45,293 nt of DNA, taken from the NCBI GenBank assembly GCA_042216335.1, contig JBDGTY010000040.1, positions 1 to 45,293 on the forward strand, written 5' to 3'. The notes beneath the pieces were generated by a model. It had not been told where the DNA came from and did not search any database. It saw only the letters and a list, made by a program, of their open reading frames with translations. Of this stretch, positions 23,846 to 44,553 are shown piece by piece. Source of the stretch: Candidatus Nanohalobium sp. (GTDB taxonomy: Archaea; Nanohalarchaeota; Nanosalinia; Nanosalinales; Nanosalinaceae). A program made the position numbers and the translations under genes. Within the stretch, counting starts at the first letter, position 1. Each line of letters starts with the position of its first letter.

Positions 23846-24118
23846 TCAAGGAGTTGAACTCCCACCAGAACCGGACTCTGAACTGCTCACTGCGCAGTCT
23901 CTCGCTGATTCCGGAGGTTTCTTACAGTTCTGCCAGTTGGCGCTGTCGATCATGCAGTTCTTGTACTTCGTCTGCTTCACGCTGCAACTGGCATCTTCCT
24001 GCTGGTTTCCCAGAAATGTGCTGAAACTGTCGGTCTCGCTCTGGAGCATGAAAGCCAGCACCATGGCTGCTATGATGGCAATCATCGCCACGACAACAAG
24101 CTGGATAGTCTTGTCCAT
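23846..24118 (-). CDS. Pilin-like protein (no obvious cleavable leader)
   Basis: N-terminal hydrophobic helix, small four-Cys head, downstream of the 24128 pilin. Confidence 0.7.
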   Translation of the reverse strand: MDKTIQLVVVAMIAIIAAMVLAFMLQSETDSFSTFLGNQQEDASCSVKQTKYKNCMIDSANWQNCKKPPESARDCAVSSSESGSGGSSTP

Positions 24119-24127
24119 TATATCTCC

Positions 24128-24418
24128 TTAAGTCTGGCACTGGTATTCTGATGCGCTCGGGCCTATTCCGAGCTGGTTCTGCACTCCGGTCTTCACCTTT
24201 CCGTCACTGCCATAGCAGGTACTTGGCAGTTCAACGCTCTGGGCTCCTGCACTACATTGTGCCTTTACCGTGCTTGTACAGCTTGTTACGCCTGTGTCCT
24301 TGAAGAATCCTGTCAGGCTTCCGGATGTGAACATTATTACCAGGAGCGCTGTCATCATGAGAACGGATGCGGCCACGATGAGTGACAGTACCTGGGACAT
24401 TCCCTTTCGACTTTTCAT
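24128..24418 (-). CDS. Type IV pilin with class III signal peptide; candidate major pilin
   Basis: MKSRKG|MSQVLSLIVAASVLMM, four Cys; own TATA box (TTTTTATA at 24442-24449, minus strand). Confidence 0.85.
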   Translation of the reverse strand: MKSRKGMSQVLSLIVAASVLMMTALLVIMFTSGSLTGFFKDTGVTSCTSTVKAQCSAGAQSVELPSTCYGSDGKVKTGVQNQLGIGPSASEYQCQT

Positions 24419-24495
24419 GAAAAACTATTGAGGTGGTCTGGTATAAAAATGCAGTGCCGGCGTGAAGAAAGAGAAAACTAGGGAAAAATTAGGTT

Positions 24496-24783
24496 TTATT
24501 CGGGCTGTCTGAGATCAACTTGGATGGATGAAACGTTGATCTCATCGCCTTCATCCGTCTCGATGTCGTCAGTACCGATAGAGATATCCTCGACCTCTGC
24601 TTCCTCAACAAAACGGTCTCTGACAATTTCTGCAACGTCTACAGCTCTGGAGATAGCCTTTCCACGAGCCTTGACGTGGACAGTTTCATGTCCCTCGTTG
24701 AACTGAGTTACAACTGCGAGCACGTAGCTCATTGCAGGTTTGGATCCGACGTACACTGTATTGTCATCTTCGTTCTCTGGCAT
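24496..24783 (-). CDS. albA: DNA/RNA-binding protein Alba
   Basis: [38 protein letters not shown]. Confidence 0.96.
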
Positions 24784-24828
24784 ACTAGTTCACCTGTATT
24801 TGGAAACTGCATTCACAATCATAAATAT

Positions 24829-25863
24829 CTATTTGGTCGGCACAGAGTATATCATCTCGAAGTTGAAATCTATCCTCTCTTTTTCCCCTTTTGAGTTTAT
24901 TACCTTCTTCTTTGAGTCGGAAAGGTTGTATTTCAGCCGTGCTCTATAAACTGCAGCTGTGGCGTCTGCAGAGTACTGTGTCCCATCATTACATTCTGGT
25001 TCGTCCTTCCCACCACACGGATCAGGGTAAGTACAGCTGTCGGAGTCTACATCCACTTCGCCTTTTATCTCAGCCTGGAAAGTTCTGGACGATCCTTTTC
25101 TGACGATCCATTCAGGCCTCTTCTTGCTGTCATCGCCGAAAAGCTTTTTCGCGTAATTTTCTTTCGAACCCTCCGCCTCTTGGATTGCTTTAGTTCTGGC
25201 CTCAGATTTTTCAGCAGATCTTGACTCAGGACAGTCGCTTCCCTCATCATAGCCTGTGGCGGTTATAGGGCTCCTATCCTTGATATATTGGGGGATCCGA
25301 GATGCGAAGCTCACAGAATACTCTCCAAGCTTGAGATATCTGTTCGGAGGGTTATGGATTTGTAGTGTGTCGGTGATGTTTATCGTGGCTTCCGTGGCTT
25401 TTGTTTCGCATCTTATCCGGGGCCATCTTAGGTTGGCTTCGAACCTGGTTTTACTTGAGCTGTATGTGTCGACGTTTTCTATCCCTGGTGTGCTGCAGCC
25501 TATTACATCGTTCTGGGTTCTCAGGTGTGCGGTGACGGCGTCCAGGTATTCTGTCTTCACCTTCTGGTAGGTTGGTATGCTTTCCGGCCATCCCAGGTCG
25601 TCGGTGTTTCCGTCTTTTCTGTCTTCTCCTCCGTGCAGTCCCAGTTCGAGGGCGCGGATGTTCGTGGAGTAGTTAAGTTCCACGCGGGTTCTGTTCTCGT
25701 AGGCATCAGCTTTCAGCTTCGCTTCCGTTATCGTGTTGAAGTCCCCTGTCTGGTAGTTGACGGTTTTCTGTATCGTGTCTGCCGAGTATATTATACCGAA
25801 GAAGCCTGTAGTGCCTAGTGCGGCCAGCAGTACGACTGCTATAAGTGAGACGACTCCTTTCAT
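24829..25863 (-). CDS. Large minor pilin-like protein with Cys-containing C-terminal domain
   Basis: MKG|VVSLIAVVLLAALG; extracellular-type composition. Confidence 0.75.
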   Translation of the reverse strand: MKGVVSLIAVVLLAALGTTGFFGIIYSADTIQKTVNYQTGDFNTITEAKLKADAYENRTRVELNYSTNIRALELGLHGGEDRKDGNTDDLGWPESIPTYQKVKTEYLDAVTAHLRTQNDVIGCSTPGIENVDTYSSSKTRFEANLRWPRIRCETKATEATINITDTLQIHNPPNRYLKLGEYSVSFASRIPQYIKDRSPITATGYDEGSDCPESRSAEKSEARTKAIQEAEGSKENYAKKLFGDDSKKRPEWIVRKGSSRTFQAEIKGEVDVDSDSCTYPDPCGGKDEPECNDGTQYSADATAAVYRARLKYNLSDSKKKVINSKGEKERIDFNFEMIYSVPTK

Positions 25864-25868
25864 AGTTC

Positions 25869-26330
25869 TCAGTGGGAGAATACTCCTATTTTCAGTTTCC
25901 GCAGGTTTTCCGAGGGCGAGGCGATCCGGACGCTCGAGTATCGCATGCCTCCTTTGTTCGAGGAGCTTGTGTTCAGCAGGATCTTGCTTCCCTCATCTGT
26001 CTGGCTCTGTACCTCGGCATAGTACCGTTTGAATGGTGAAAGAGCGCTGTTCAGAGGATCTGTAATCTGTTTTTCTGAGATATCTGAGCCTGAAAGGTTG
26101 TATTTCCCGGCTTTCTTCATCAGCTCCCGGTTGCTGTGTATCGCTGCCGTGGCTGTATGAGCCTGGAACTTCAGCACGTTCTGGATTCTGTTCGCTCTTA
26201 GATCTGCGTTCAGCTCTATTTCAGCGATTACTGGCGCTGAGAGGAGTATAAGCAGTATAGATATTCCTAGTACGATAATACCGGGTATGTATTCAAGTGC
26301 GCCTCTTTCACGTTTTATTTCGAGTTTCAT
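25869..26330 (-). CDS. Minor pilin-like protein
   Basis: KRERG|ALEYIPGIIVLGISILLILL. Confidence 0.75.
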   Translation of the reverse strand: MKLEIKRERGALEYIPGIIVLGISILLILLSAPVIAEIELNADLRANRIQNVLKFQAHTATAAIHSNRELMKKAGKYNLSGSDISEKQITDPLNSALSPFKRYYAEVQSQTDEGSKILLNTSSSNKGGMRYSSVRIASPSENLRKLKIGVFSH

Positions 26331-26333
26331 CTG

Positions 26334-26759
26334 TCATTTACCTCTCAGTCTCTCGACTTTGTACGTTAGTTCCACGTTGACAGGGTAAAAACCTTTCTGT
26401 TCCGAGTACATGATCGATTCCAGTGAGAGTGATTCGGCGCCACCTACTTTGGTTATGCAATTAGGCTTGCCTGCGCCCACGCTTAGCTTTCCGTCTTCTG
26501 TGAGGCCCTGTTCGTTGATACTGCATGAATCAATCCTCGAGTTAAGTTCACTGAAGCTCTGGAAACCTAGTTCCCCGTTCATGTTCGAAACTGTGAAGAA
26601 GCCTGCTGTCTTATAACCTGTGCCTTTGTTAACTTCAGATGCTATATCTGAACTGGCTCCGATGAAGCCGAACAGAGCCGCCAGGATCGTGGTCGCAAGC
26701 ATGATGAAGAATATCGACTCCACCAGAAGTTCGAATACTTTGTCCAGGTTCATCCCCAT
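26334..26759 (-). CDS. Minor pilin-like protein
   Basis: MG|MNLDKVFELLVESIFFIMLATTILAALF; two Cys. Confidence 0.65.
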   Translation of the reverse strand: MGMNLDKVFELLVESIFFIMLATTILAALFGFIGASSDIASEVNKGTGYKTAGFFTVSNMNGELGFQSFSELNSRIDSCSINEQGLTEDGKLSVGAGKPNCITKVGGAESLSLESIMYSEQKGFYPVNVELTYKVERLRGK

Positions 26760-26762
26760 TTT

Positions 26763-27173
26763 TCAGCACTCACCTAGTTTGAGCCTGACCTGGCTTCTAG
26801 GCTTCTTGATCAGGCAGAGATAATCGTCCTTACCGGTTTCATACCTGAAATCCACTGGAGGGTTTATCCTGCTCTGACCCTCTCTTCCTAGCGGCTTCAG
26901 AGCCAGCGCCCCACTGCTGTAATTGATGTAGACTTTGCTCTGCTGCACCTCGATGCCGTACCTGCCACCCAGTCTGAGCTCAGCCCTTCCTCTCTCAACA
27001 CTTGACATCATGTAGATAGCGGACTGGACACGCGTACCGACGATATCAACCGTCTCGATTCTTATCTTCTCGGGGATCGACTTCGCACTGCTTACAGCCA
27101 ACGTCAAAAGCATTATCGCAAGTATAATCCCTGCGGCGTATCTACCCGGTATGGCCAGCAAACCCTTAGCCAT
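26763..27173 (-). CDS. Minor pilin-like protein
   Basis: MAKG|LLAIPGRYAAGIILAIMLL; C-terminal LCLIK...GEC. Confidence 0.75.
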   Translation of the reverse strand: MAKGLLAIPGRYAAGIILAIMLLTLAVSSAKSIPEKIRIETVDIVGTRVQSAIYMMSSVERGRAELRLGGRYGIEVQQSKVYINYSSGALALKPLGREGQSRINPPVDFRYETGKDDYLCLIKKPRSQVRLKLGEC

Positions 27174-27561
27174 TCCTTACAGTCACCTCGCCGTCACCGG
27201 TCTTCTTCAACGTCCAGCCGCCACCAGTGAAGATATTCGTCTCCTTAACCTCCAGACCCTTTTTCTTACAGGCGTAAAAGGTGACTGTATCGCTCGTGGC
27301 AGTGCTACTGGCAGTGTTATCTTTAGAGATGTGGATGCTCTCACTGGGGTCCAGGTTCAGGGTCACCGTTGTGCTTCGCATGGAAGAACTGCAAAGTGTC
27401 TCAAGCGACTCGTTCAACTTCTCAAGATTCTGACCTCCTGTACCTGAAGAATCCGGTGCAAGACCATTCGCCACTCCTAGACTTACTTTCATTCCTACCA
27501 GTGCGGCGACCAGGCCGAGTATCACGGTCACGACTATGCTAGGCATACCGCCCTTCATCAC
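27166..27561 (-). CDS. Minor pilin-like protein
   Basis: MMKG|GMPSIVVTVILGLVAALVG; LNESLETLC helix then beta-rich head. Confidence 0.75.
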   Translation of the reverse strand: MMKGGMPSIVVTVILGLVAALVGMKVSLGVANGLAPDSSGTGGQNLEKLNESLETLCSSSMRSTTVTLNLDPSESIHISKDNTASSTATSDTVTFYACKKKGLEVKETNIFTGGGWTLKKTGDGEVTVRNG

Positions 27562-27781
27562 TCTTCAACCCCTGTACTGTACCTTCGATCGATCCCGAGG
27601 TTTTCTTACAGTCCCCTTTAGCAGGATTACAGTCTATAATCCCGTTATCACCTTCTTTACCTATCACTGCATCCCTGGCCTCGCCGAGAACGTTCTGAGA
27701 AAAGCCGAAAACCAGCGCTATCACAGCCACAGCCAGGCCTATGGTGATGAGTATTGCTGTCTCACTGCTCATGGCAACCAC
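27539..27781 (-). CDS. Small pilin-like protein (start GTG 27781 or ATG 27772)
   Basis: MSSETAILITIGLAVAVIALVFG; two Cys. Confidence 0.7.
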   Translation of the reverse strand: MVAMSSETAILITIGLAVAVIALVFGFSQNVLGEARDAVIGKEGDNGIIDCNPAKGDCKKTSGSIEGTVQGLKSDEGRYA

Positions 27782-27894
27782 CCGATGAGCGCCTGTTCCC
27801 CGCCGCTGATATAGCTACTGGCCGTGAACATCAAAATCATAAAAGCAGTGATTCCCAAGGCAAGAGAGACAACTATGCGGATGGAGATACTCAT
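27769..27894 (-). CDS. 41-aa pilin-like microprotein (not in ORF track)
   Basis: MSISIRIVVSLALGITAFMILMFTASSYISGGEQALIGWLP*; ATGA overlaps with both neighbours. Confidence 0.75.
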   Translation of the reverse strand: MSISIRIVVSLALGITAFMILMFTASSYISGGEQALIGWLP

Positions 27895-28160
27895 ATACTT
27901 CTATAAGAAGAGGCTGCATTAAGTTTTCTTCCCTTATCTAGACTCACAGAATGTACCGCATCTCCATCTTTACCCTCCTTCAGAGGAGCCGAACTCGGAG
28001 TCACCTGGTCCGGAGTATTCTTCTCCGAGATACCGATTAACTTATCCACCTCATCCTGAATAACACCGGAAGCGATAGCGAAAAACACAGCCATAAACAT
28101 CAAAATCAGGACCAGGACCGCAGTCGAATTAATCGGCAAACTTACTCCTTTTCTACCCAT
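27891..28160 (-). CDS. Small pilin-like protein (start moved to ATG 28160)
   Basis: MGRKG|VSLPINSTAVLVLILMFMAVFF. Confidence 0.8.
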   Translation of the reverse strand: MGRKGVSLPINSTAVLVLILMFMAVFFAIASGVIQDEVDKLIGISEKNTPDQVTPSSAPLKEGKDGDAVHSVSLDKGRKLNAASSYRSI

Positions 28161-28198
28161 ATGATTCACATAAATCTCCTCCTTCAAATCACTTTGCC

Positions 28199-30355
28199 CT
28201 AGTATGCACATGCAGGAATAATCTTCTTCTGAGCTGTCCTAACCTTCGCAATGCTCAATCCTCCCTTATCGGAGTCCGATCTTAAACTTATCGAATTAAC
28301 ATTACCGGATTTTATGCCGATACTCTGGGAAGCATACTTCGAACCAGCAAAGACGAATGCCAGTCTGGCCTGATCTCCCGACAAGTCCAGGACGTAACCG
28401 AAATCTCCAACTTTTCCGGCGCCTATATCGGCTGGATTGAAGTCTAAATCTCCTCCCGGGTAGGTGGCTGTATAACTCCTCTCCGCGTTCAACTTGTCAT
28501 AGTTAACATATATCTGAGACTTCTTCTTTCCATTGACCTTTAAGATGATCGAGCTAGGTACTCTGGGATAATCGGTTGTTCTGTACGTATATCTAAGTTT
28601 GAACTTGTCTACGGCCCCTGATACACTCCACTTGGCACTCGAAGGACTCCCCTGCGAAGTCACAAATAGTTTACTATCTCTGTACTCGACATTACCACTC
28701 TTAACTGCATCATCGAGAACATCCCTCTGACTTGGCTGACACTGACCGCTCCCACTCTCCTTTAGGAACCATCCAGGACGGAAAACTTCTATCTTCCGAC
28801 TTTCCTTGAACTTCTTGAATCCGACCCGAGTAATTTTGAAACTGCACTCGAGTTTCGAACTTAAGCTTTCAGGCGAGATAGTTTTATTCATTCTGGCTTC
28901 TCTAGGGCTGCAGGTTCTGCCTTTAGGTGCTTCGAAACCAAAGAAACCTCCGAGACTCTCATCGCTACCAGTCCGAATACAGTTCCCGTTCTTACCAAAC
29001 TTGTTGTTCGTGATAGCGATCATAGGAAATACAGCATTTTCGATCCTTGAGATGCTGCCTGTAGCCTCTCCTGTATTAGGAAGCCATTTGGCGTTTGTTT
29101 GAACGTACCCTCGTGCACCCTTACAGAACTTGTATTCGACTTCCTCGATAAAGTCCTCGAACTTTCCTTCACCTAATGAGTCATGTTTGTTTTTCTTTGT
29201 TTCGTATCCGCTGGTAGTGTACTGAGGGGTGGCTGGAGCGATCATCGGGACATTCACCATCCTGACTCGGTAGTTGTAAAGTCCCTCTAACTTGCCGTTC
29301 TTAAAGTGGGTGTCGTGGAGATTTTTGCTCTCAGCTAAGGCAGGGTTTGCTGGATTTCCTGTATTGCATGATTTTCCCAGCACTAAGGATTCAGCAAATT
29401 CCAAACCCGCAAGTTCAGCATCAAGAATTTGCTTAGCAAGGTTTCCATAGTCTAATATCGGACCTTTCCATTCAGCCTTCTTGATTTTTGATGCATCGCA
29501 TTCAAAAAGGACTAGTTCATCGGCATAGAGTTCTGCATCTTTTTGGTTAAATATGCGATCGTCCATGAGTCCAGTCCACCATTTGCCTGGTTTACCCCCT
29601 TTAGGTACGAACACGGCGTTTGTAAAGCCTCTCCAGAAGGCAGGGGGTTCTTCATCTTTCGGCATTACCTCTCCTTCAAGTCTGATTCCCATCAGTACTT
29701 CAGGACAGTTTTCCGCTTTGTACCTGTCAGCAGGGCAGGGTTTGAAGTCTCCGATGCTGAATGTTGTGTTGATTTTGAAGTATTCGCGTCCGTACCGTCC
29801 TTCCATGTCGTTAGATGTTTCCGATACATCTGGACTTAGAGGATTAAGGTTCTGTAGGGTATCATCTATTGGATTGACGTCGATTGCCTTGGCTCCGATG
29901 CAGGTTGGGTTGAAGTTTGTCCTGTTTACAAGAGCGTTTATAGGGTTCCTGTTGGAGGCATCTGCTTTCTTGTTGTTTCCTGTGTTGCCGAAGTGTGCTA
30001 TTAATCCTGCTGATTTTTTGGGTTTTCTAAATATCTTGTCCATTGCTTTGATGGTGTTGCAGTTTACTGCGGCCATCATGTTGAATGCTATGAGGCCGCG
30101 CATCTGTGCTTCTGCGTCGTCGTCTCTGAAGTTTTGGTTGACTGTGAATTGGCTGTTGTCGCTTCCGATGTCTCCGCCTATTATTACTGTTTGTGGGCCT
30201 AGGCTGTCCAGTGCGTTGCTTAGTTTGTCTGTGCCGGGGCCGAGTGTCTGTGCGTGTATCCCGCTTATGACCTGGTAGCCGATGACGAGTCCCATGACTG
30301 CGAGGACTAGTTTGGCGGTGTGTGAGAAGGGGAATGACATTCCTTTTTTCAGCAT
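28199..30355 (-). CDS. 718-aa pilin-anchored adhesin-like protein (true start ATG 30355)
   Basis: MLKKG|MSFPFSHTAKLVLAVMGLVIG; GGAGG upstream; Cys-rich; beta-rich C-terminal domain. Confidence 0.8.
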   Translation of the reverse strand: MLKKGMSFPFSHTAKLVLAVMGLVIGYQVISGIHAQTLGPGTDKLSNALDSLGPQTVIIGGDIGSDNSQFTVNQNFRDDDAEAQMRGLIAFNMMAAVNCNTIKAMDKIFRKPKKSAGLIAHFGNTGNNKKADASNRNPINALVNRTNFNPTCIGAKAIDVNPIDDTLQNLNPLSPDVSETSNDMEGRYGREYFKINTTFSIGDFKPCPADRYKAENCPEVLMGIRLEGEVMPKDEEPPAFWRGFTNAVFVPKGGKPGKWWTGLMDDRIFNQKDAELYADELVLFECDASKIKKAEWKGPILDYGNLAKQILDAELAGLEFAESLVLGKSCNTGNPANPALAESKNLHDTHFKNGKLEGLYNYRVRMVNVPMIAPATPQYTTSGYETKKNKHDSLGEGKFEDFIEEVEYKFCKGARGYVQTNAKWLPNTGEATGSISRIENAVFPMIAITNNKFGKNGNCIRTGSDESLGGFFGFEAPKGRTCSPREARMNKTISPESLSSKLECSFKITRVGFKKFKESRKIEVFRPGWFLKESGSGQCQPSQRDVLDDAVKSGNVEYRDSKLFVTSQGSPSSAKWSVSGAVDKFKLRYTYRTTDYPRVPSSIILKVNGKKKSQIYVNYDKLNAERSYTATYPGGDLDFNPADIGAGKVGDFGYVLDLSGDQARLAFVFAGSKYASQSIGIKSGNVNSISLRSDSDKGGLSIAKVRTAQKKIIPACAY

Positions 30356-35800: not shown

Positions 35801-38662
35801 AACTATTTTGTCGAATCCCTCAATCATCTCCCTGCTTCTTTTTCTATTCTGCACTGTGTTTCTCATGCCGCTCTCTGTGAAGCCTATATCCGCGGCAAGA
35901 GCGTTGTAGGAAATGTCAAGTATGTCTCTGACTTCGTCCAGATCTCCCATCATTTCCTCGTAGTCTTTCTCGGCAAACTCTTCAAGAAGCTCTGCCTGTT
36001 CTTCCATTTCCTGGAGTTTGTCCCACCTATCCTCGAAATGATTTGTAATCTTCTCCAGCCAATTCCTACCGACGTTGTATTCTTCGTTCTCGTAAGCCCA
36101 ATAATCCTTTCCACATTCCCTGAACTGTTTTGGGCTCATCCTGAGAGCCTCTCTTAACTCTTTGATCTCTTTCCCCGCTCCGGGTACTACATCGGTGTTC
36201 GTGTTGTTGATTGCATCTTTTTCCAGCATCTCTTCAAGTCTTTCCTGCTTCTCATTGTGTGCTATGCCTATTTTTTCAGCAAATCTGTCGGCGAACTTGC
36301 CTCTGATGAAAACTCTGTAGTGTTCGCCAGAATCCAAATCCTTTTTCTTTGTGTACGCTGTGATGCCGAACCTCAGCAGAACCATACGCAACTGTTTCTT
36401 CATCTTCTCACTTTTGGTCGAAAGTTCTATCTCTCTTTTATTCTCCGATACAAATCCATCTGCTGCAAAATATCCACGAATGAAACCTCTGACAACCTTG
36501 TCGGGCGATTTCAGTATTTTATCAGGGATCTCTATTTTTCCGGATTTCTTACCGAAAGGTACTGAGAATACGTCTTTAAGGATTCTGGAAAGATTCCGTG
36601 AAGTGACCTGAGAAACTGTGGTCGAGTGAGATTCAAACCCTCTGCAACTCACTCCGAAACGTGAAACAAGTGACTCAAACCTGTCCTGAATTTCCTGAAC
36701 GCTGTTGTGGAATTCGATTTTTTTCTCATTGACGTGCCCATCCCCAAGAACTAGGCCTAGGAACTCGGCCAAGTCTTCATCAACTTCTCTCGGGAACTTT
36801 ACTTCCTGTGCATTGGTCTCTCCGTATACTATGAAGCCTTCGTCTGTTTCTTCAAATTCAAATCTTTCCCTATCTATATCTATTTCCTGCTTCTCTGAAG
36901 AAGTCTCAAAGCTGCGAGGGGTCGCTATATAATTACCTTCTTCTAGGTTATCCGCTCTCAACTTTTTCAGTCCATCTGAATACGTGAAGTAGGGATGCTC
37001 TGGTGTAGTTCTGATTTCTCGACCTGACTCAGTTTCTATCTTTATCAGCTCTTCAGGACTCTCACGTTTCCAGACATCAGTTATCTCTTCTTCCGAAAGC
37101 TTCTTCTGATTTGAAAGAGCTATTGCTTCTCCAGCAGCACGGTTGTCGTGGAGCGTTCCATCTTCGATTTCTTCCTTGAACCCTCCAACCATATCCTCTA
37201 TCTTAACTATATTACCGTTGGAGAGCTGTATTTCCGTATCCCCTGAAACACATTTACCGGCACCTCTCGTACCGGAGAAAATGACGGAACGATTACCGTC
37301 TATTATGAAGCTTAACAGTCCTGCGCCGAGCGGGTTGATCATGTTGTTCTGGATGAAGAGTGGTAGTGTCCATGCGCGGCTTCTGTGTCTTCTGAATGCG
37401 AAGGCCAGTCCTTCTGGGCTCAGGTTCTCCTGTATTACTGCTACGCGTGCTCTTCCTCCTGTGACCTCTGTTTCTGTGTCGAGTACGGGGTTGGCTTCGT
37501 CCAGTGGTCTTCCAGACTGTATCCTGAAGCGTGTGGCCCAGGATTCGGCCTCGTCCTTTGTCGGTATCAGGTTGGTCTCGCATTCCCCGTACTCCTGGTG
37601 TGAGATGAAGATGGGTGAGTCCCCGATAGGGGAGTTTATGTAGACGTCCTCGATCTTCGGATCCGCTAGTAATAGTTCGAGTACTCCGAGGCCGGAAGTG
37701 TATCTATTCAGTATATCAGTTAAACTTTGCAGTTCTTCCTGTCCGAGCTGCATGTCCATCTGGTTGGCGATGTCTCTCAGCATATCGCGGCCTATGTTCT
37801 CGAACACGTCCTTCATCCTCTCCGGTCGGGCGAACTCTCCTGACTCCGGGTCGTGACTCGCCATGTATCTCCGTGCTGCGTCCAGGAGGTTGTACTTCTC
37901 CTCAGGAAGATTGAACTCTGGAGGGTCTACGTGGTAGACGGGGCGGGTCTGATCCGGCACGTCGTAAAGTGTCACGTCGATATCGTTCCTTACTGAGTAC
38001 CTGTCGACCTCCTCACCTCTCTCAGGTGGCAGAGACATGAACTTGGTAAGCATAAAGTTCGGCCTGACCAGCGGATGGAAGAATTCCCTGTAGACCTCCC
38101 TGTCGCCGACGTGGTGGCCAGTGATGTAGTCCGAGGCCCTGTCGATAATCTCGCACTCCTCGATTCTGTCCAGCACCGGGCTGACCACGTCCTGTATGAA
38201 GTATTTGCGGCAGCGGCTCTGCTGCGGGTATTCGCTGTTCTCCATCTCCTGTTTCAGGTGCCGCTTCTTCCTCTTTAGCTCGACGTATGCTCCGACCGGG
38301 TCGCGCCTCATCTTGTCGAAGACTATCTGCTGGACCTCCGGTAGTTCCTGAGAATACAGTTGATCGCATTTCTCGGTCTTGATGTTCTGGGAGAGGTAGC
38401 CCTGTGAAGAGATTTCCTGTATCGCGTCGGCGACACCTCTCAGCAGGCTGACCTGTTCCTCGCCGTACTCGTAGTCACGTGACTCGGAGAGGATCACGCT
38501 GGAGGCGTTGGGTACCTCCTGTAGTATGTTTATGACCCGTGACATGACCTCGGGATAGTCCTCGATGCTTGCGCCGTAGATAGATCCGAGGGTGTTGACT
38601 CGGACCGTTCCGGTATCCTCCTCGTACTCGTAGTCGAAGACGTCCTTATCTCTGACTGCCAT
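32831..38662 (-). CDS. Type IV pilus assembly ATPase (PilB/TadA/VirB11 family) with two inteins; about 752 aa after splicing
   Basis: IEDVYIN, GRPLDEANP, Walker A GTRGAGK|T, Asp box VED|TLEL, SLRLGD, Walker B VIGEVR, GTIHG. Confidence 0.95.
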   Translation of the reverse strand: MAVRDKDVFDYEYEEDTGTVRVNTLGSIYGASIEDYPEVMSRVINILQEVPNASSVILSESRDYEYGEEQVSLLRGVADAIQEISSQGYLSQNIKTEKCDQLYSQELPEVQQIVFDKMRRDPVGAYVELKRKKRHLKQEMENSEYPQQSRCRKYFIQDVVSPVLDRIEECEIIDRASDYITGHHVGDREVYREFFHPLVRPNFMLTKFMSLPPERGEEVDRYSVRNDIDVTLYDVPDQTRPVYHVDPPEFNLPEEKYNLLDAARRYMASHDPESGEFARPERMKDVFENIGRDMLRDIANQMDMQLGQEELQSLTDILNRYTSGLGVLELLLADPKIEDVYINSPIGDSPIFISHQEYGECETNLIPTKDEAESWATRFRIQSGRPLDEANPVLDTETEVTGGRARVAVIQENLSPEGLAFAFRRHRSRAWTLPLFIQNNMINPLGAGLLSFIIDGNRSVIFSGTRGAGKCVSGDTEIQLSNGNIVKIEDMVGGFKEEIEDGTLHDNRAAGEAIALSNQKKLSEEEITDVWKRESPEELIKIETESGREIRTTPEHPYFTYSDGLKKLRADNLEEGNYIATPRSFETSSEKQEIDIDRERFEFEETDEGFIVYGETNAQEVKFPREVDEDLAEFLGLVLGDGHVNEKKIEFHNSVQEIQDRFESLVSRFGVSCRGFESHSTTVSQVTSRNLSRILKDVFSVPFGKKSGKIEIPDKILKSPDKVVRGFIRGYFAADGFVSENKREIELSTKSEKMKKQLRMVLLRFGITAYTKKKDLDSGEHYRVFIRGKFADRFAEKIGIAHNEKQERLEEMLEKDAINNTNTDVVPGAGKEIKELREALRMSPKQFRECGKDYWAYENEEYNVGRNWLEKITNHFEDRWDKLQEMEEQAELLEEFAEKDYEEMMGDLDEVRDILDISYNALAADIGFTESGMRNTVQNRKRSREMIEGFDKIVQTLNSRIKKFEKKTGSNLEELDKMVEAGIVTYREVSDRTEIPLTSVKNYSYGEIDPSEDRRQKIETEIENIKKETHKNLKKARKKIDDFKSASTELAQIMAALKEFREVLNIEREEYEGVHDQTVSQVLSSETEPSIEVMQKLAASTADIYREATDRKTEKLLEELSERADSDLYWDKIKKIEAEVPEEEHVFDLTVGNKHNFIANGLIAHNTSLLSASMLEIMKNHRIVSVEDSVTGDSSIIYRKDSEVRYGEIGDLIDTQIEEKGSEDRGGRDVLPENPDNVKVLSMDDSGNMRWSDASLFMRHDVEKPIYEIETRTGRKLKVTEDHSVFGMSDEGSITEVRPTELDEGDHLVTPRKLDIPSGEKEWNLSSKASELDGYFKNDLDLRDYRSELRDFADENDYSEHTAQYWVRENIVPAEAVEVLDIETGKDTVYKHKRTSSELPVEIELDKRFMEFLGLWMADGCYDNRSVLVTVSDERCQEVVREVFERFGLPVKLHSDEHSLMANSQPLKEVMQKHGFTGDAYSKRIPEWIFSASEEQRHAFLRGFYSSDGYSTSHEAGIDLINEELIEDIQTLLLIDGIRGRARDSGKMRSMRISDLEGLRKFKEKIGFLQDYKNDNLDLEDRESTHDTTDVVPLPRDMLEELCSETEMERHDYVTRGNELGRQKLKQVIGRSETAEKISQFADSDIFWDQVKSIEKVSEEETVYDISVPGDENFITSNILAHNTLELPVPQMKDLGYNIERMKSRSVITQVENELGADEAIRTSLRLGDSALVIGEVRSEEAQALYEAMRVGAVANFVGGTIHGEDAYSVFDRVVNDLNVPKTSFKATDIIVSVNKIKSPDGLETYRRVTGITEVRKEWTDDPQEENAFVDLMRYDSNEDELVPTDTLINGESLILNRIAENIREWKNNWDAVWNNIQLRKDIKQELVEKAEETGDDDLLEAEFVVKANQQFHLISEKVHDEYGRQEPERILNRWKEWLDQQV
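33614..35098 (-). mobile_element. Intein 2 (495 aa) in the Asp box; LAGLIDADG endonuclease
   Basis: VED|SVTGDS...TEDHSV...FLGLWMADG, FLRGFYSSDG...VYDISVPGDENFITSNILAHN|T. Confidence 0.95.
35165..37252 (-). mobile_element. Intein 1 (696 aa) in Walker A; LAGLIDADG endonuclease plus extra HTH-like insert
   Basis: GK|CVSGDT...TPEHPY (block B)...FLGLVLGDG, FIRGYFAADG...VFDLTV..HNFIANGLIAHN|T. Confidence 0.95.
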
Positions 38663-38704: not shown

Positions 38705-39172
38705 ATGGCCCAGGGCAACATGATCAACCGGATAGTCGACAGGGTGAACGACTTCAACAGAAGGGTCAGGGACCTGGAAGAAAAGATACGCAACCTTCAG
38801 GCCCGGGTCAGAACTCTGGACGATACCTTGCTTGAGAAAACATCGGATCTCTCCGACGATATACAGGAGCTTGAGGATGAGATGAGCGAGTTAAGGGATC
38901 GCGTCGCCAACATGGAAGTCGACATCAAGGAGATAAACCGTGAAAAGAGAAAATTCGTGACCTCACAGGAACTCGAGGAGATAGAAAACTACATGGACCT
39001 GATGAACCCGTTGAACGCAGGCTTCATAACCCGGAGCGAGGCCAAGAAGATGATGAAGAAGCAAGGCTCCGGGTTAACGAGGGATGAAGTCAAGCAGATA
39101 GTCGACAGAAAGATAAAAAACCTCGAGCAACAAGACTCAAAGGAAGACCGCCCTGGTGAACAAATCGAATGA
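38705..39172 (+). CDS. Coiled-coil protein divergent from the pilus ATPase
   Basis: Continuous heptads over residues 5-95 ending in YMDLMNPL. Confidence 0.85.
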   Translation: MAQGNMINRIVDRVNDFNRRVRDLEEKIRNLQARVRTLDDTLLEKTSDLSDDIQELEDEMSELRDRVANMEVDIKEINREKRKFVTSQELEEIENYMDLMNPLNAGFITRSEAKKMMKKQGSGLTRDEVKQIVDRKIKNLEQQDSKEDRPGEQIE

Positions 39173-40071
39173 AATTCCAGCTTTTCGAAAGACTCAGAGA
39201 CGACGACTCCGGAAACAACAGTTCTACATCAGGAGGCCCACAGTCCCAGGGACTCGGAGAACCACAGATGAACGATTCAGGGCTTCAAGGTGGTGGACTG
39301 GAAAGAACAGTAGAAAACATGTTCGACCAGGGCTACTCCGAAGAAGAGATAAGAGACGAACTACAGGGCCAGTACAGCGAACAGGAAATACAGCAGGCCG
39401 TCAACAACACTGTAGCAAGTAACGCGACCGACAGTGGTGGACCGGAACCCATGACACCGTACCAGTCCGATGACGAACCTGTCAGCCCTATGGACGAGGG
39501 ATACGGCGGAGACGGCGAAGGAGACATGCCTGCCGAGCAGGATGACGGCAATCAGGACATGCCTCCACAGAACCCTCCACAACAGCAACAGCAGATGCAG
39601 CAACCACCGCAACAGGATATGCAGAACCAGCAGATGCCTGGTGGTCAGCAGGGCCCACCGGGTCAAGGAGGACAGGTTGACTCCTCCGTAGAAGAACTTA
39701 TCGAAACAATAGTGGCGGAGAACTTCCAGAGAGTAACAGCAGAATTCCAGAACGTATACGAAGAACTCGACACAATCGAAGAAGAGATAGAAAGCCTGGA
39801 GAAAAGAGTACACGACCTGGAGGTCAGGGACGACGAAGACCAGGAACAGTTCGTTCAGAAAGTCGAGGAGATGGAGGACCACATCGACCAGTACCAGTCC
39901 AGGATTGGAGGACTGGAAAAAGCGTTCCAGCAGGTACTACCCAATCTCGTCGACAACGTTCGCGACCTCACCCAGCTGGTCCAGGAGATCAAACAGGAGA
40001 AGGGGATAGAAACCTCAACCGACATCTCCCAGCAGGAAATGGACGACATGGATCAACTGGAAGACTGGTAA
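39169..40071 (+). CDS. Acidic protein: small helical domain, Q/P/G-rich linker, C-terminal coiled coil
   Basis: QGYSEEEIRDEL helical unit; PPQQQQQMQQPP linker; VEELIETIVAE...IGGLEKAFQQVLP coiled coil; ATGA overlap with upstream gene. Confidence 0.85.
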   Translation: MKFQLFERLRDDDSGNNSSTSGGPQSQGLGEPQMNDSGLQGGGLERTVENMFDQGYSEEEIRDELQGQYSEQEIQQAVNNTVASNATDSGGPEPMTPYQSDDEPVSPMDEGYGGDGEGDMPAEQDDGNQDMPPQNPPQQQQQMQQPPQQDMQNQQMPGGQQGPPGQGGQVDSSVEELIETIVAENFQRVTAEFQNVYEELDTIEEEIESLEKRVHDLEVRDDEDQEQFVQKVEEMEDHIDQYQSRIGGLEKAFQQVLPNLVDNVRDLTQLVQEIKQEKGIETSTDISQQEMDDMDQLEDW

Positions 40072-40099: not shown

Positions 40100-40615
40100 C
40101 TAGTCCCCGCCGGTAGATGCATCAATCATCAGCAGCAGGAAGAGCAAGAATACTACAGGGAAGATCACGTTCTGCCAGGTGTCTCCTCCTGTGTTGATGC
40201 TGAGCAGGGAGATAAGGTCCAGGTTGTAGATCAGTGCACCTATGAAAGCTATCAGGACTATAAGGCCGGCAAATAATGCCAGTATCCCGAACTCTCCTTC
40301 CTCATCCGGTATCACATCTGTAGGTTCTACTCCTCCCATTGCAAGCAATATAATTGTGCCGAAAAGCGCGAAAAGACCGAAACCTATCGCCGCAGCAAAA
40401 TTTAGAAAAATTTCATTTAGTTCATAAGCATATATACCAAGGAGGGTGAAAAGTGAGCTTCCAAGTGAGGCACCAGCCATAACCGACTCATCGCTGAAAA
40501 TCTCATACTTCGCCAGCAACCCGTAAATGAGTGCTGCAAAGAGTAACCATATAAAAACGTAGTAGGCTCTTGAATCGATCATTGACTGAAGCAGAACTCC
40601 AAATACTCCTGCCAT
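40100..40615 (-). CDS. Membrane protein (about 5 TM)
   Basis: FIWLLFAALIYGLLAKYEIF; hydrophobic throughout. Confidence 0.85.
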   Translation of the reverse strand: MAGVFGVLLQSMIDSRAYYVFIWLLFAALIYGLLAKYEIFSDESVMAGASLGSSLFTLLGIYAYELNEIFLNFAAAIGFGLFALFGTIILLAMGGVEPTDVIPDEEGEFGILALFAGLIVLIAFIGALIYNLDLISLLSINTGGDTWQNVIFPVVFLLFLLLMIDASTGGD

Positions 40616-41214: not shown

Positions 41215-41514
41215 CTACTCTTCTCCACCCTCGCTCTCGGAGTTATTCTCATCTTCGTCTTGGCTCTCGCTTTCCAGGTAGGAGCTGATCTTCCTGTTCA
41301 TAATCCACAGCTCTCGACCTATGATCATCAGGCCGAGCATGACAATCCATGGGAAGATCTGCCGGCCGAACTCGATAAAGTTAGGGCCGTTCGAAACAAA
41401 GAACAGCGAATAAACCGATACAGTAAGCGCTCCAAGAGATAGAGCTACAATCACAAACTCGTCTACTATGTTTTCAACTTTGTAAACAAAGTTCCGGAAA
41501 TCCTCTTTCTTCAT
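41215..41514 (-). CDS. Two-TM membrane protein
   Basis: GGTGAT RBS; two hydrophobic segments; acidic tail. Confidence 0.8.
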   Translation of the reverse strand: MKKEDFRNFVYKVENIVDEFVIVALSLGALTVSVYSLFFVSNGPNFIEFGRQIFPWIVMLGLMIIGRELWIMNRKISSYLESESQDEDENNSESEGGEE

Positions 41515-41526
41515 TCTTTGATCACC

Positions 41527-41670
41527 CTAGAAACCGCCCATACCACGGTTTTTCCTTCCAGTAAGTTTTGCCACTGCAAATCCTGCAACTGCTCCGATCA
41601 ATGCAATATCGATGTTGTTCATCAACCGGACCATCAAGGTCGCGGCCTGCTTCGCCTCTTCTCCTGCCAT
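41527..41670 (-). CDS. 47-aa single-TM microprotein (not in ORF track)
   Basis: MAGEEAKQAATLMVRLMNNIDIALIGAVAGFAVAKLTGRKNRGMGGF*; GxxxG helix and basic tail. Confidence 0.8.
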   Translation of the reverse strand: MAGEEAKQAATLMVRLMNNIDIALIGAVAGFAVAKLTGRKNRGMGGF

Positions 41671-41724
41671 TTTATATCGTCCTGTTGTTTTATTTACAGT
41701 ATATGGTTTAAATAATTGTTTGGA

Positions 41725-43197
41725 TCAGAAGCCTTGAACTGTCTCTTCAGTGATATCTATTATCTGGCTGCTTTCGCTCTTGACTCTTTCTATAGTATCG
41801 ATTTTATTTTCGAGAAGCTGTTTTGTGGTCTGTATGTCTTCTCCTTTAGAGCCAGAAATCTGGCTTTTAAGTGTTTTAAGGCTGCTCTCTTCTTCACTCA
41901 AACTTTCAGCTATATCTCTTATCACTTCTGTTTCGCTTTGTAGGCCTCTCACTTCTGTTTCAAGTTCCTCCTTCTCTGACTCTATCTTTTGGGAAAGTTT
42001 CTTCCTCTCTTGGTCTAGAGCGTGCGTTTCTGATTCAATGTTGCCTGTTTGAGATTCAATATTGCTTACTGCTCCTTTTTCTCGTTCTGCGCCTGCTCTT
42101 TGCTCCGCCTTCTTTTCAGCATCCCCCATCTCCTTCTCTGTTGTCTCCAATTCAGATATTTCAGTGGCTAGGGCCTCAATATTATTTTCAGCTCTCTTTA
42201 TCATAGGTAGAATCTGTTTAATTCCTTTAGCATAGTCTTTCTGGCCTTTGAGTAGAGTCTCCAACTTTTGAAGGCTCTCTAATTCTTCTCTGAAGTCTTC
42301 GTTTATTCTCTCAATGTTATCGCCTTCAATTCCCTGTTCTGCCGTAACTTGGATAAGGTATTGGGCATCCTCAATCAGGTCTTGCTGCTCCCCCTCTATG
42401 GATTTAAGCGCCTCTCGCTCATGTTCCTCGCTTTCCAAGATTTGGTCTTCCTTACTCTTTATCTCGTTTAATGCTTCTTCAAGGCGAATTTCCTCCTCTC
42501 TCAATTTCTGAACTATATCTTCTGCTTCCTCGTTCTCCATTTCAAGTTCGTTTATTACTCTGTCTTCGGGCGCGCCCTGGGACTCCTCATTTTCTGTCTG
42601 GTCTACTTTAGTCTTCAGGTCTTCAATTTCGGACTGGACTGTCTCAAGGCCTCCATCGGTCGTGGGTACTCCGCCGTCTGGTGTTGCGCCTCCTCCGCCC
42701 GTTCCATTCAATATTTCGTATGCATAGTACAGAATTAATCCAAATCCTCCTAACATCAGCAGTAGCGTGGCAAGCCCTGCGAACCAGAAACCAATAATTG
42801 TCATTGAAACGTACGCTCCACCGGCTGAAATAAGTCTTACTGCCCAGACGCCATCGCTTCCTGTTGCTGTTGAAGTTATCTGATTGTTTAGTTTTCCAAC
42901 AGCCGCATCGACTAAAGTTTTAATGGCGCCATAGCTGGCGATGAATAATCCTAGAAATATTAGTAAATCTCTCGGACTGTTAATTCTGAAAAGTATTAAT
43001 TGATCTGCTAAAGTGGTTATGAGTCCCATCACGCCACCTCCGGAATTTACCATTCCGGTTGAGAAGATACCTCCTCCTTCCTGTGCAATTGTTAATCCAA
43101 TGAATGCAAGAGTGATGCTAGCTAAGATAGAAGACTTAAGCTTGATCGAAAAAAACTTTGGACTTTTGGAAGGATTACTATCCATATCTAATAACAT
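41725..43197 (-). CDS. Membrane-anchored long coiled-coil protein
   Basis: About 160 aa hydrophobic N-terminus, GTGGGGATPDGG linker, about 300 aa acidic heptads. Confidence 0.85.
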   Translation of the reverse strand: MLLDMDSNPSKSPKFFSIKLKSSILASITLAFIGLTIAQEGGGIFSTGMVNSGGGVMGLITTLADQLILFRINSPRDLLIFLGLFIASYGAIKTLVDAAVGKLNNQITSTATGSDGVWAVRLISAGGAYVSMTIIGFWFAGLATLLLMLGGFGLILYYAYEILNGTGGGGATPDGGVPTTDGGLETVQSEIEDLKTKVDQTENEESQGAPEDRVINELEMENEEAEDIVQKLREEEIRLEEALNEIKSKEDQILESEEHEREALKSIEGEQQDLIEDAQYLIQVTAEQGIEGDNIERINEDFREELESLQKLETLLKGQKDYAKGIKQILPMIKRAENNIEALATEISELETTEKEMGDAEKKAEQRAGAEREKGAVSNIESQTGNIESETHALDQERKKLSQKIESEKEELETEVRGLQSETEVIRDIAESLSEEESSLKTLKSQISGSKGEDIQTTKQLLENKIDTIERVKSESSQIIDITEETVQGF

Positions 43198-43227
43198 CTC
43201 ATATTAGTTTTTAAGTTCTTTTCCGTG

Positions 43228-43734
43228 TCAGGAGAGTGCCTTGTATACTACGTAGCCGGACACTATGACTATGCCTGCGGCTGCCGCTATACCGAGAGAA
43301 GCCATTAGTCCGCGGATGATGTCCCAGTAAGGGGTTGGTATCAGTGATGCGGTTATAGCTAGAGACATTATCATAGAGTATCTGGTGGTATCTGGGCGAT
43401 TATCTTTGATAGGAAACATGTAAGGTACAAATCCTCTATATTCGGGGTCACTGTAATCTGGGGTATCATCTTTGGCAAGTATAAATGTTAGAGCCTTACT
43501 TAGGGCAATATTTAGTAGGGTTGCTATGAAGATGAATGGTGCCACGAGTTCTGAGAGTATCTCCTCTTGAGAATCAAATTGAGGTGTTGAGAAGTATGAG
43601 TCTCTAGATTCGAGTATTTGAGAGTTTCCTCCGCCCTGGTTGTAGTAGAAGGCCGCAGATACACTCGAAACAAAACTGATCAACATCAGCGTGAGTACCA
43701 GTTTTTTACTGGTCGAAGTCGAAATCGTCTCCAC
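43228..43734 (-). CDS. Membrane protein with signal-like N-terminus and about 3 TM
   Basis: KKLVLTLMLISFVSSVSA; LVAPFIFIATLLNIALSKAL resembles the PF motif of 40615..41214; start uncertain. Confidence 0.75.
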   Translation of the reverse strand: METISTSTSKKLVLTLMLISFVSSVSAAFYYNQGGGNSQILESRDSYFSTPQFDSQEEILSELVAPFIFIATLLNIALSKALTFILAKDDTPDYSDPEYRGFVPYMFPIKDNRPDTTRYSMIMSLAITASLIPTPYWDIIRGLMASLGIAAAAGIVIVSGYVVYKALS

Positions 43735-43966
43735 CTCCTCCGATTTCTCCTGCTCCTCCGCTGCCTCTGGCCTTGTCGAGGTATGCGGGTATGAGTTCGT
43801 CTATGAGGAATCCGGTGAACAGTCCGAGGAATGCGATTATGAGTATGTGGCCTGGCTGTGGTGGAAGTCCGTACTGCTGAGTGGCGATCTGCGTGACTAT
43901 ATCCGATGCTAGGTATCCTGCCACTGCGGCGAGCGCAAATGCTCCGAACTTCCAAGGATCTCTCAT
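43706..43966 (-). CDS. Two-TM small membrane protein
   Basis: Two hydrophobic segments; Gly/Asp tail GGGGDDFDFDQ. Confidence 0.8.
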   Translation of the reverse strand: MRDPWKFGAFALAAVAGYLASDIVTQIATQQYGLPPQPGHILIIAFLGLFTGFLIDELIPAYLDKARGSGGAGEIGGGGDDFDFDQ

Positions 43967-44047
43967 ACGTTACCATTTTGATTATGTTTTTATTATAGTT
44001 GGCTATATATTCAAAAATTAAATAAATGCAGTTGAGAATATTGAATC

Positions 44048-44553
44048 ATGGCTATTCGTGATCGAGTTGGAAATATGTTAGGGAAAGACGAAGAACTTGA
44101 AGAGAAAGAACTAACTGATATGGGGGAACTTGCGAAAAGGATTCAAAATGAAGAGGAACATCTTGAGCGAGAGGAGAAGCTTGATGAGAAGATTCTAGCG
44201 GATGTTCAGGATATCTCGTCAGAGATGCAATCTCTTCGAGAGGATGAAGAAAGGATGCGTGAGATCTGGGGGAAGGAATAACGTTAGGAAACCAAGAACA
44301 ACTATCCGAAGTTCAGGAACTGGCCCAAAGAATCAAGAGTGAAGGTGAGGCTATCGAGCAGGATTTTGCTCAATTAAAGGAAGAAATTGAACAACAGAAG
44401 GAAACAGCCCAGCAAGTGAATCAGGATGAGTCTAGTATTGCAGAATTGGCAAATCAGGTTCAGGCTGAATTTGATAGACATCAAAGTATGCTTGAACAGG
44501 CTGAAAATGCCTTGAATCAAGAGCTCATGGGGTCTGATGCATTACAGGGATAA
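44048..44553 (+). pseudogene. Coiled-coil protein gene split by a single-base frameshift (about 168 aa if joined)
   Basis: ORF stops at 44281 but the -1 frame is open 44263-44553 with the same composition and a related repeat; G5 run at 44268-44272. Confidence 0.7.

What the first reader, a model, noticed from the sequence alone, without database searches (positions are those of the whole stretch)
23846..44553. Candidate DPANN host-contact super-locus: type IV pilus, divergent coiled coils and membrane protein cluster
Seen: about 21 kb with one housekeeping gene (alba); the rest is a pilus operon, a head-to-head coiled-coil pair, seven uncharacterised membrane genes and a further coiled-coil gene. 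Known: Nanohaloarchaeota are host-dependent and their attachment machinery is poorly defined. Inference: these blocks may form one envelope machine (adhesive pilus, cytoplasmic scaffold, membrane channel or anchor).
Basis: partly seen in the sequence, partly recalled or inferred. Interest (0 to 1): 0.75.

Follow-up and report, generated by a model that had tools for sequence, protein, structure and literature searches.

The report
DPANN pilus motor with membrane partners
In tiny host-dependent archaea of three phyla, a type IV pilus motor gene usually sits beside two coiled-coil genes and an unnamed membrane-protein family, which are likely extra parts of a pilus machine probably used to contact the host; the motor and coiled-coil part is already published.

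Summary
The anatomy is real. The stretch holds a VirB11-type ATPase (two inteins; 752 aa spliced), one TadC platform, 13 pilin-like genes around alba, two divergent coiled-coil genes and a seven-gene membrane operon. Its conserved core is five families: ATPase, TadC, a short and a long coiled-coil protein, and 2-6 paralogues of an unnamed five-helix membrane family. In the Woesearchaeota-containing phylum the ATPase occurs in 70 of 71 genomes, the membrane family in 69, the short coiled coil in 68; membrane genes lie within 10 kb of the ATPase in 41 of 68, and in 29 of 41 Aenigmatarchaeota. When the cassette breaks, its pieces stay with each other or with pilin-like genes. The 21-kb unit is overdrawn: housekeeping genes are equally syntenic in this family, five membrane genes were seen only in this family's loci, and the last coiled-coil gene is a frameshifted orphan. 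ATPase+TadC+coiled coils match the loci of Hamm et al. 2024 (likely Locus 2); the membrane family and pilins were not in the text I read. This scan found the same cassette before on other genomes. Physical assembly and a host-contact role are inferred, untested.

The parts
32831..38662 (-). Type IV filament secretion ATPase (VirB11/FlaI/GspE type), 1943 aa with two inteins, 752 aa after splicing; ~210-aa clade-specific N-terminal extension; core
   Evidence: T2SSE, FlaI, TadA hits; model residues 210-414 match GspE 2oap Z 13.2 and FlaI 4ihq Z 11.5; Walker A GTRGAGK-T, Asp box and Walker B intact across the splice sites; single copy in 70 of 71 and 41 of 41 genomes of two other phyla
35165..37252 (-). 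Intein 1 (C471-N1166) with LAGLIDADG and HTH segments, inserted right after Walker A lysine
   Evidence: Intein_splicing, LAGLIDADG_3; junctions read
33614..35098 (-). Intein 2 (S1189-N1683), inserted in the Asp box (ED|TLEL)
   Evidence: same site occupied in 10 of 101 orthologous ORFs listed
30622..32775 (-). Single large TadC/ArlJ-like platform protein, 717 aa, about 8 predicted TM helices; core
   Evidence: T2SSF E 4.8e-8; follows the ATPase in nearly all loci
38705..39172 (+). Short coiled-coil protein (CCS, 155 aa), conserved C-terminal YxDLxNP..F.T motif, no TM or signal; core
   Evidence: 68 of 71 genomes; divergent from ATPase in 56 of 68
39169..40071 (+). Long coiled-coil protein (CCL, 300 aa): small helical N-domain, Q/P-rich linker, coiled coil ending in RIGGLEKAF..LP.L.ENV; no TM or signal; core
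   Evidence: only weak coiled-coil Pfam hits, FlaC_arch in 10 of 49 members below cut-off; 48 of 51 scanned loci
40100..40615 (-). Five-helix membrane protein, MEM family paralogue B (171 aa); core
   Evidence: profile match to paralogue A P 98.5 and to non-halophilic members P 99.7; family of 2747 clusters at 50% identity
40615..41214 (-). Five-helix membrane protein, MEM family paralogue A (199 aa); core
   Evidence: all-helical model pLDDT 79.8; no fold match
41215..41514 (-). 99-aa two-helix membrane protein; found only in loci of the window's family
   Evidence: 22 of 24 family loci, 0 of 11 loci of other families
41527..41670 (-). 47-aa single-helix glycine-rich membrane peptide; family-specific
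   Evidence: 21 of 24 family loci
41725..43197 (-). 490-aa protein: signal-peptide-like N-terminus, MEM-like helical hairpin, acidic coiled-coil tail (predicted cytoplasmic); hypervariable slot, 1-3 copies of 245-800 aa in relatives
   Evidence: N-part vs MEM profile P 72, vs the 168-aa family P 94
43228..43734 (-). 152-168-aa signal-peptide-bearing membrane protein; only weakly MEM-like; family-specific
   Evidence: profile P 8-34 to MEM
43706..43966 (-). 86-aa helical-hairpin membrane protein, first gene of the membrane operon; family-specific
   Evidence: 14 of 24 family loci, many of the rest cut short
24829..30641 (-). Eleven minor-pilin/adhesin-like ORFs (38, 59, 718, 89, 41, 77, 130, 136, 141, 153, 344 aa); 8 carry a K/R-G plus hydrophobic class III-like leader; the 718-aa one is a fast-evolving adhesin candidate with 12 Cys
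   Evidence: same run in relatives; no Pfam/NCBIfam hit for the 8 scanned
24496..24783 (-). alba (housekeeping passenger)
   Evidence: NF003088, TIGR00285 over cut-off; at this place in Nanohaloarchaeota loci only
23846..24418 (-). Two small pilin-like genes (96 and 90 aa); the 96-aa one (RKG|MSQ) has the best-conserved N-terminus and is the major-pilin candidate
44048..44553 (+). Frameshifted acidic coiled-coil gene; NOT part of the conserved system
   Evidence: two frames; no counterpart in relatives' loci or paralogue; same letters in the one run that covers it, which may be the source

Best explanation
This is a DPANN-type type IV filament machine in which two cytoplasmic coiled-coil proteins and a mixed set of five-helix membrane proteins are likely accessory subunits around the ATPase-TadC motor, and which probably builds an adhesive pilus for host contact. 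Shown: gene content, catalytic motifs, cross-phylum linkage, near-universal single copy. Inferred mechanism: the prepilin peptidase (encoded elsewhere) cleaves the K/R-G leaders; the spliced hexameric ATPase drives TadC to polymerise the 96-aa major pilin with a tip of minor pilins and a fast-evolving adhesin; CCS and CCL would form an inward-facing collar (as ArlX or ArlCDE do for the archaellum, recalled) that docks on the ATPase's extra N-terminal domain or on TadC; the MEM paralogues, in fixed subtypes, would form a membrane ring that anchors or gates the machine at one site. In this family five more membrane genes were added to the ring's operon. Step odds: type IV filament system 0.95; CCS/CCL/MEM work with it 0.7; host contact is its job 0.55.
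For: ATPase fold and motifs; TadC; class III-like leaders in 9 of 13 downstream ORFs and in relatives; peptidase candidate on C42. Co-occurrence: ATPase 70/71, MEM 69/71, CCS 68/71; ATPase and MEM 41/41; MEM 38/42 in the own phylum. Linkage within 10 kb: CCS-ATPase 58/68, 56 divergent; MEM-ATPase 41/68 and 29/41; at least one pairwise link in 61/66, against roughly 2% expected for a 20-kb window in a 1-Mb genome (my arithmetic; kin are not independent). Rearrangements keep partners: in 5 of the 10 genomes where CCS is away from the ATPase it lies within 4 kb of MEM; in G028 and G029 CCS-CCL-MEM sits at the end of a pilin-like operon away from the ATPase; in the 490,885-bp genome G104 all of ATPase, CCS, CCL and 4 MEM hits survive scattered, with CCS in an operon with three small pilin-like ORFs. 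MEM subtypes form stable clades within lineages (quick tree) and their helices hold no conserved charged residue, which fits a scaffold better than an ion-coupled transporter. Hamm et al. report by proteomics that the coiled-coil proteins of such loci are made.
Against: Linkage is not obligatory: MEM is more than 10 kb from, or on another contig than, the ATPase in 27 of 68 and 12 of 41 genomes by listed hits (some are contig ends, several are not); 4 of 11 loci of other Nanohaloarchaeota families have a second TadC operon in place of the cassette. MEM is transcribed convergently to CCS-CCL and separately from the ATPase, so three transcription units are involved. Within this family, pgm, fen1, EF-1b, nmd3, eIF1A, RIO and topo VI are equally syntenic, so family-level order proves nothing. 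No pilin HMM hit; peptidase is 25.7 bits against a 26.5 cut-off. The genome has a second type IV filament locus with PilA-like genes (C56) that could be the adhesive pilus instead. No natural MEM fusion to a motor part was found (weak search). No evidence here bears directly on host contact.
Confidence: 0.6

Rival explanations
1. The MEM paralogues form a separate hetero-oligomeric membrane complex (a pore or junction for taking up host material) that is co-inherited and co-regulated with the pilus but is not physically part of it.
For: Own operon, convergent to CCL; detached from the ATPase in about a third of genomes; kept as a tandem set even when detached; CCL travels with MEM in L127.
Against: Detached cassettes keep CCS or pilin-like neighbours; no conserved polar residues that would line a pore.
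Confidence: 0.2
2. The locus is a retractile DNA- or nutrient-uptake pilus (competence-like), with MEM as the membrane channel and the coiled coils as couplers; host adhesion is secondary.
For: DNA uptake through DPANN pili has been hypothesised (PMC9563170 passages); near-universal retention in auxotrophs; alba lies inside the operon in Nanohaloarchaeota.
Against: No ComEC-, DprA- or HerA/VirB4-like gene hit in the stretch; alba is absent from these loci outside Nanohaloarchaeota; no conserved basic residues inside MEM helices.
Confidence: 0.12
3. Only ATPase, TadC and pilins are a machine; the coiled-coil and membrane genes are unrelated DPANN housekeeping genes kept nearby by slow gene-order decay.
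For: Long housekeeping synteny in this lineage; three separate transcription units.
Against: Across phyla the flanking genes vary and even the pilins leave, while CCS-CCL-MEM stay; partner-preserving rearrangements.
Confidence: 0.08

Closest known systems
Type IV pilus-like Locus 1/Locus 2 with coiled-coil proteins (CCPs) of cluster-2 DPANN and Undinarchaeota, Hamm et al. 2024, PMC11291902 (passages, legend of Fig. 4, supplement list; figure and Dataset 13 not seen)
   Same: CpaF-type ATPase, TadC and CCP genes together, in Nanohalo-, Aenigm-, Woese-, Pace- and Nanoarchaeota; proposed role in host interaction. The own genome's C56 locus has the Locus 1 neighbours (chaperonin, GatE, PilA-like, one CCP, names from my reading of the sequences), so this one is likely Locus 2.
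   Different: The text I read names no pilins for Locus 2 and no membrane family; it likens CCPs to viral sigma-1 attachment fibres, whereas CCS and CCL lack signal peptides and TM helices and so look cytoplasmic.
Archaellum (ArlI/ArlJ with ArlCDE or ArlX scaffold)
   Same: Same ATPase fold, a single large platform protein, cytoplasmic coiled-coil partners; weak FlaC_arch hits on CCL.
   Different: FlaI HMM 98 bits against a 550 cut-off; no archaellin found in the genome; no ArlH/F/G hit in the stretch; ATPase has ~210 extra N-terminal residues.
Archaeal T4F system 1 (Epd pilus) and subclade 4F with coiled-coil arCOG07564 (PMC13705601 sections 8, 11; PMC4858521 section 12)
   Same: Many diverse minor pilins in one operon; ATPase extensions proposed as docking sites for accessory proteins; a cytoplasmic coiled-coil accessory in 4F.
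   Different: System 1 has two platform genes and its own peptidase in the locus; here one platform, peptidase elsewhere, and an added membrane family. Homology of CCS/CCL to arCOG07564 was not tested.
Myxococcus Kil apparatus (Tad-like, PMC8460266, abstract only)
   Same: Functional analogy: a Tad-like machine with extra parts that assembles at cell-cell contact sites.
   Different: Bacterial, diderm, prey killing; no homology of accessory parts tested.
Nanobdellota attachment organelle (PMC11420986, PMC11104419, passages)
   Same: One per cell, has a ~20-nm portal, a barrier or cytoplasmic gate and a 7-nm tube reaching the host; components stated to be unknown.
   Different: Seen in Nanobdellales, not in Nanohaloarchaeota; no gene has been tied to it; link to this cassette is speculation.

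Membership tests
Archaeal type IV filament superfamily | VirB11-type secretion ATPase with intact Walker A/B and Asp box | tested here: met
Archaeal type IV filament superfamily | TadC/ArlJ platform protein | tested here: met
   T2SSF over cut-off, E 4.8e-8; internal duplication inconclusive
Archaeal type IV filament superfamily | Pilins with class III signal peptides | tested here: met
   K/R-G plus hydrophobic helix in 9 of 13 ORFs, recurrent in relatives; by motif only, no pilin HMM hit
Archaeal type IV filament superfamily | Class III (prepilin) peptidase | tested here: inconclusive
   265-aa multi-TM protein on C42, Peptidase_A24 E 9.3e-6, 25.7 bits vs cut-off 26.5; not in the locus
Archaeal type IV filament superfamily | A filament is assembled | not testable with these tools
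   needs microscopy or proteomics
Hamm et al. 2024 DPANN CCP loci (Locus 2) | CpaF + TadC + coiled-coil protein genes adjacent, across cluster-2 DPANN | tested here: met
Hamm et al. 2024 DPANN CCP loci (Locus 2) | Sequence identity of CCS/CCL with the CCPs named in the paper | not tested
   Dataset 13 and Fig. 4 not held as text; assignment to Locus 2 is by exclusion
Archaellum | Archaellin genes and FlaI-equivalog ATPase | tested here: not met
   PF01917 no match in G000, 96% complete; NF058587 98 vs 550 bits
T4F system 1 (Epd pilus) | Two platform genes and a dedicated peptidase in the locus | tested here: not met
   one 717-aa platform gene, no peptidase ORF in the stretch
Ced/Ted DNA import systems (recalled) | HerA/VirB4-type ATPase in the locus | tested here: not met
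   the only ATPase is VirB11-type
MEM family vs any solved membrane fold | Structural match to a known channel or transporter | tested here: inconclusive
   best Z 6.5 over 57 residues, no Foldseek E<=0.001, no PDB sequence hit; model pTM 0.59
Nanobdellota attachment organelle | Localisation to cone, portal, barrier or tube | not testable with these tools
   components unknown in PMC11420986 and PMC11104419

The most novel reading that the evidence does not exclude
The five-family cassette is the basal body of the DPANN attachment organelle: the motor extrudes the ~7-nm tube into the host, the MEM ring is the barrier or gate in the ~20-nm portal, and CCS/CCL are the cytoplasmic gate scaffold, making it the shared host-invasion machine of cluster-2 DPANN.
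Probability: 0.2. Interest if true: 0.85.

Novelty: new variant of a known kind. Interest (0 to 1): 0.5.

Why it matters
How DPANN archaea attach to and feed from hosts is an open question; cryo-ET shows an organelle whose proteins are stated to be unknown, and a 2026 census calls DPANN type IV filament genes scattered and unassigned. A single-copy, near-universal cassette of five families, one of them a large unnamed membrane family kept even in a 0.49-Mb genome, gives a short candidate list for antibodies, cross-linking and subtomogram fitting. The interest is capped because the motor-plus-coiled-coil loci and the host-interaction idea are published and no physical or functional link is shown.

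Tried and rejected
Complex prediction of CCS + CCL against the ATPase N-terminal 470 residues: no answer, score 0.00 against a mark of 0.32, controls not folded; counted neither for nor against binding. Fold searches of the 199-aa membrane protein gave only short helical matches; PDB sequence search none below E 0.16; Atlas searches named no family for MEM or CCL. The ATPase's first ~210 residues gave only helical-bundle matches (best Z 9.1) and were not folded alone. Search for longer fused MEM forms found none (weak). TadC internal repeat: not shown (BLAST none; profile P 1.2 over 149 columns). CCS vs CCL paralogy: P 83 over a generic coiled coil only, not accepted. My early reading that the 168-aa protein is a full MEM paralogue (iterated HMM, which timed out before the other families) was lowered after profile comparison (P 8-34). 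Membrane-family alignments were too variable for the DNA scan, so that scan was anchored on the ATPase and is biased to ATPase loci; the whole-genome searches are not. No RNA holder listed. The MEM tree is the quick one on 120 of 215 sequences. Absence from non-DPANN and cluster-1 DPANN genomes could not be searched. The 44048-44553 gene and alba were rejected as system parts; apparent long ATPase ORFs of 870-910 aa in some loci overlap CCS on the other strand and were read as start-call artefacts, not fusions.
Full report
Setting. The window is a whole contig (C35) of a 1.02-Mb, 96% complete genome.

Observation. The ORF map confirms three transcription blocks. Block 1 (minus, 38662 to 23846): ATPase, TadC, eleven pilin-like ORFs, alba, two more pilin-like ORFs, with gaps of -20 to 77 bp. 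Block 2 (plus, 38705-40071): two coiled-coil genes, CCS and CCL, starting 42 bp from the ATPase start. Block 3 (minus, 43966-40100): seven membrane genes ending 28 bp from the CCL stop. A frameshifted coiled-coil gene follows (44048-44553). The 1943-aa ATPase ORF holds two inteins, one after the Walker A lysine and one in the Asp box; removing them gives 752 aa, the length of the intein-free orthologue in L001. Its residues 210-414 match archaeal GspE and FlaI structures; the first ~210 residues are an extra domain without a clear match. Nine of 13 downstream ORFs have a K/R-G plus hydrophobic leader; none of the 10 scanned hits a pilin HMM. A likely prepilin peptidase lies on C42, just under the Pfam cut-off; no archaellin was found.

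Conservation in the family. Loci were fetched for 35 of the 40 relatives searched. In the 24 from the same family MEM genes occur in 24, CCS in 24, CCL in 23 (the other is masked), the 99-aa gene in 22, the 47-aa in 21, the 168-aa in 15 and the 86-aa in 14, many loci being cut short. The 490-aa slot is hypervariable. But the control shows that pgm, fen1, EF-1b, nmd3, eIF1A, RIO and topo VI keep their order beside the locus too, so family-level order is weak evidence. Of 11 loci from other families of the order, 6 have MEM-CCL-CCS, 1 ends at the ATPase start, and 4 have a second TadC operon there instead; none has the 99-, 47-, 86- or 168-aa genes.

Conservation across phyla. The 171- and 199-aa proteins are paralogues of one five-helix family (profile P 98.5) with 2747 clusters at 50% identity and no Pfam, NCBIfam, PDB or fold match. 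An ATPase-anchored scan returned 80 loci including Aenigmatarchaeota and Woesearchaeota records; of 51 with at least 4 kb upstream, 45 have MEM, 48 CCL and 48 CCS there (some repeat family genomes). Unanchored whole-genome searches: in 71 genomes of the phylum of G041 (a Woesearchaeota record; I take the phylum to be Nanobdellota) the ATPase is single-copy in 70, MEM present in 69, CCS in 68. CCS is within 10 kb of the ATPase in 58 of 68 (56 divergent), MEM in 41 of 68 using the best listed hits (70 matches were unlisted; G055 proved linked), and 61 of 66 have at least one pairwise link. In 41 genomes of the phylum of G042 (an Aenigmatarchaeota record) both ATPase and MEM are in 41 and linked in 29; the other 12 are on different contigs. 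In the Woesearchaeota-phylum loci pilin-like genes mostly do not follow TadC: CCS, CCL and MEM stay with the motor more faithfully than the pilins do.

Rearrangements. Where the cassette breaks, partners persist: 5 of 10 detached CCS genes lie within 4 kb of MEM; in G028 and G029 CCS-CCL-MEM closes a pilin-like operon away from the ATPase; in G104 (490,885 bp) ATPase, CCS, CCL and four MEM hits are all kept though scattered, and CCS is co-directional with three small pilin-like ORFs. This is the best evidence for a functional link, and it is indirect.

Anatomy of the accessories. CCS and CCL have neither signal peptide nor TM helix, so they are predicted cytoplasmic, which argues against external fibres. 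MEM has conserved P, L and G residues, basic residues after helix 1, and no conserved charge inside its helices; paralogue subtypes form stable clades within lineages (quick tree, 120 of 215 sequences), suggesting a mixed oligomer. The 490-aa protein joins a MEM-like hairpin (P 72) to an acidic coiled coil, a weak hint that the two kinds of part associate.

Mechanism. Most likely a type IV filament motor with a cytoplasmic coiled-coil collar and a membrane ring of MEM paralogues, assembling a pilus tipped by fast-evolving adhesins for host contact (0.6). Rivals: a separate co-regulated membrane complex (0.2), an uptake pilus (0.12), mere synteny (0.08). Binding and function are untested.

Comparison with print. 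Hamm et al. 2024 (PMC11291902; passages, abstract, Fig. 4 legend, supplement list; preprint passages) describe two conserved type IV pilus-like loci with coiled-coil proteins across cluster-2 DPANN and Undinarchaeota, with proteomic support, and propose a role in host interaction. The genome's other locus on C56 has the Locus 1 neighbours, so this is likely Locus 2; their Dataset 13, which lists ten genes each side, could not be seen and may include the membrane genes as hypotheticals. PMC13705601 (passages, sections 8 and 11) treats Nanobdellati systems as scattered and ambiguous; PMC4858521 (passages, section 12) notes a coiled-coil accessory in subclade 4F; PMC9563170 (passages) notes Tad clusters without annotated pilins; PMC11420986 and PMC11104419 (passages) leave the attachment organelle's proteins unknown; PMC6393860, PMC3149612, PMC13718433 and 10.64898/2026.06.04.730037 (passages) and PMC8460266 (abstract) did not describe the membrane family. 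Searches found no description of it, within an open-access library only. Earlier notes of this scan reached similar readings on other genomes; they are not independent support.

Verdict. Observation confirmed; interpretation partly supported. A real, conserved five-family DPANN cassette inside a larger lineage-specific stretch; a new variant of a known kind; interest 0.5.

Noticed in passing
G000:C56:62139-75978: Second type IV filament locus: 571-aa ATPase, two TadC-like genes, PilA/FlaF-like genes, a 262-aa coiled-coil protein, then chaperonin and GatE (names from my reading); fits Locus 1 of Hamm et al..
   Followed up: partly
window 19650-22382: Two very acidic coiled-coil genes (596 and 276-291 aa, 35-41% D+E) between pgm and fen1; one or two such genes recur at this place in family relatives. 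Link to the pilus locus unknown.
   Followed up: partly
window 33614-37252: Two inteins in one pilus ATPase; the Asp-box site is occupied in at least 10 of 101 orthologues across Nanohalo- and Aenigmatarchaeota, both sites in L030. Inteins favour essential genes (recalled).
   Followed up: partly
L030, L031, L032, L034, L065, L068, L071, L072: A variant layout: the ATPase is back-to-back with a second large TadC gene heading its own pilin-like operon.
   Followed up: partly
L003:14458-15555, L009:15046-16089, L010:3828-4889, L018:14895-16088: In several relatives a soluble 330-400-aa gene that reads like an ATP-grasp ligase (my reading, not scanned) is inserted in the membrane operon before the 47-aa gene.
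   Followed up: no
window 4528-8136: A sensor kinase-like gene (627 aa) and two receiver-domain genes (271, 124 aa), by reading of the sequence; two-component genes seem unusual for so small a genome.
   Followed up: no
window 12418-13228 and 44681-45279: A PIN-like/antitoxin-like gene pair (my reading), and DUF357 plus a HEPN gene with four paralogues elsewhere in the genome.
   Followed up: no
window 2538-2611: tRNA-Phe(GAA) on the minus strand.
   Followed up: no
window 44048-44553: Frameshifted orphan coiled-coil gene, lower GC (0.43), absent from relatives' loci.
   Followed up: yes
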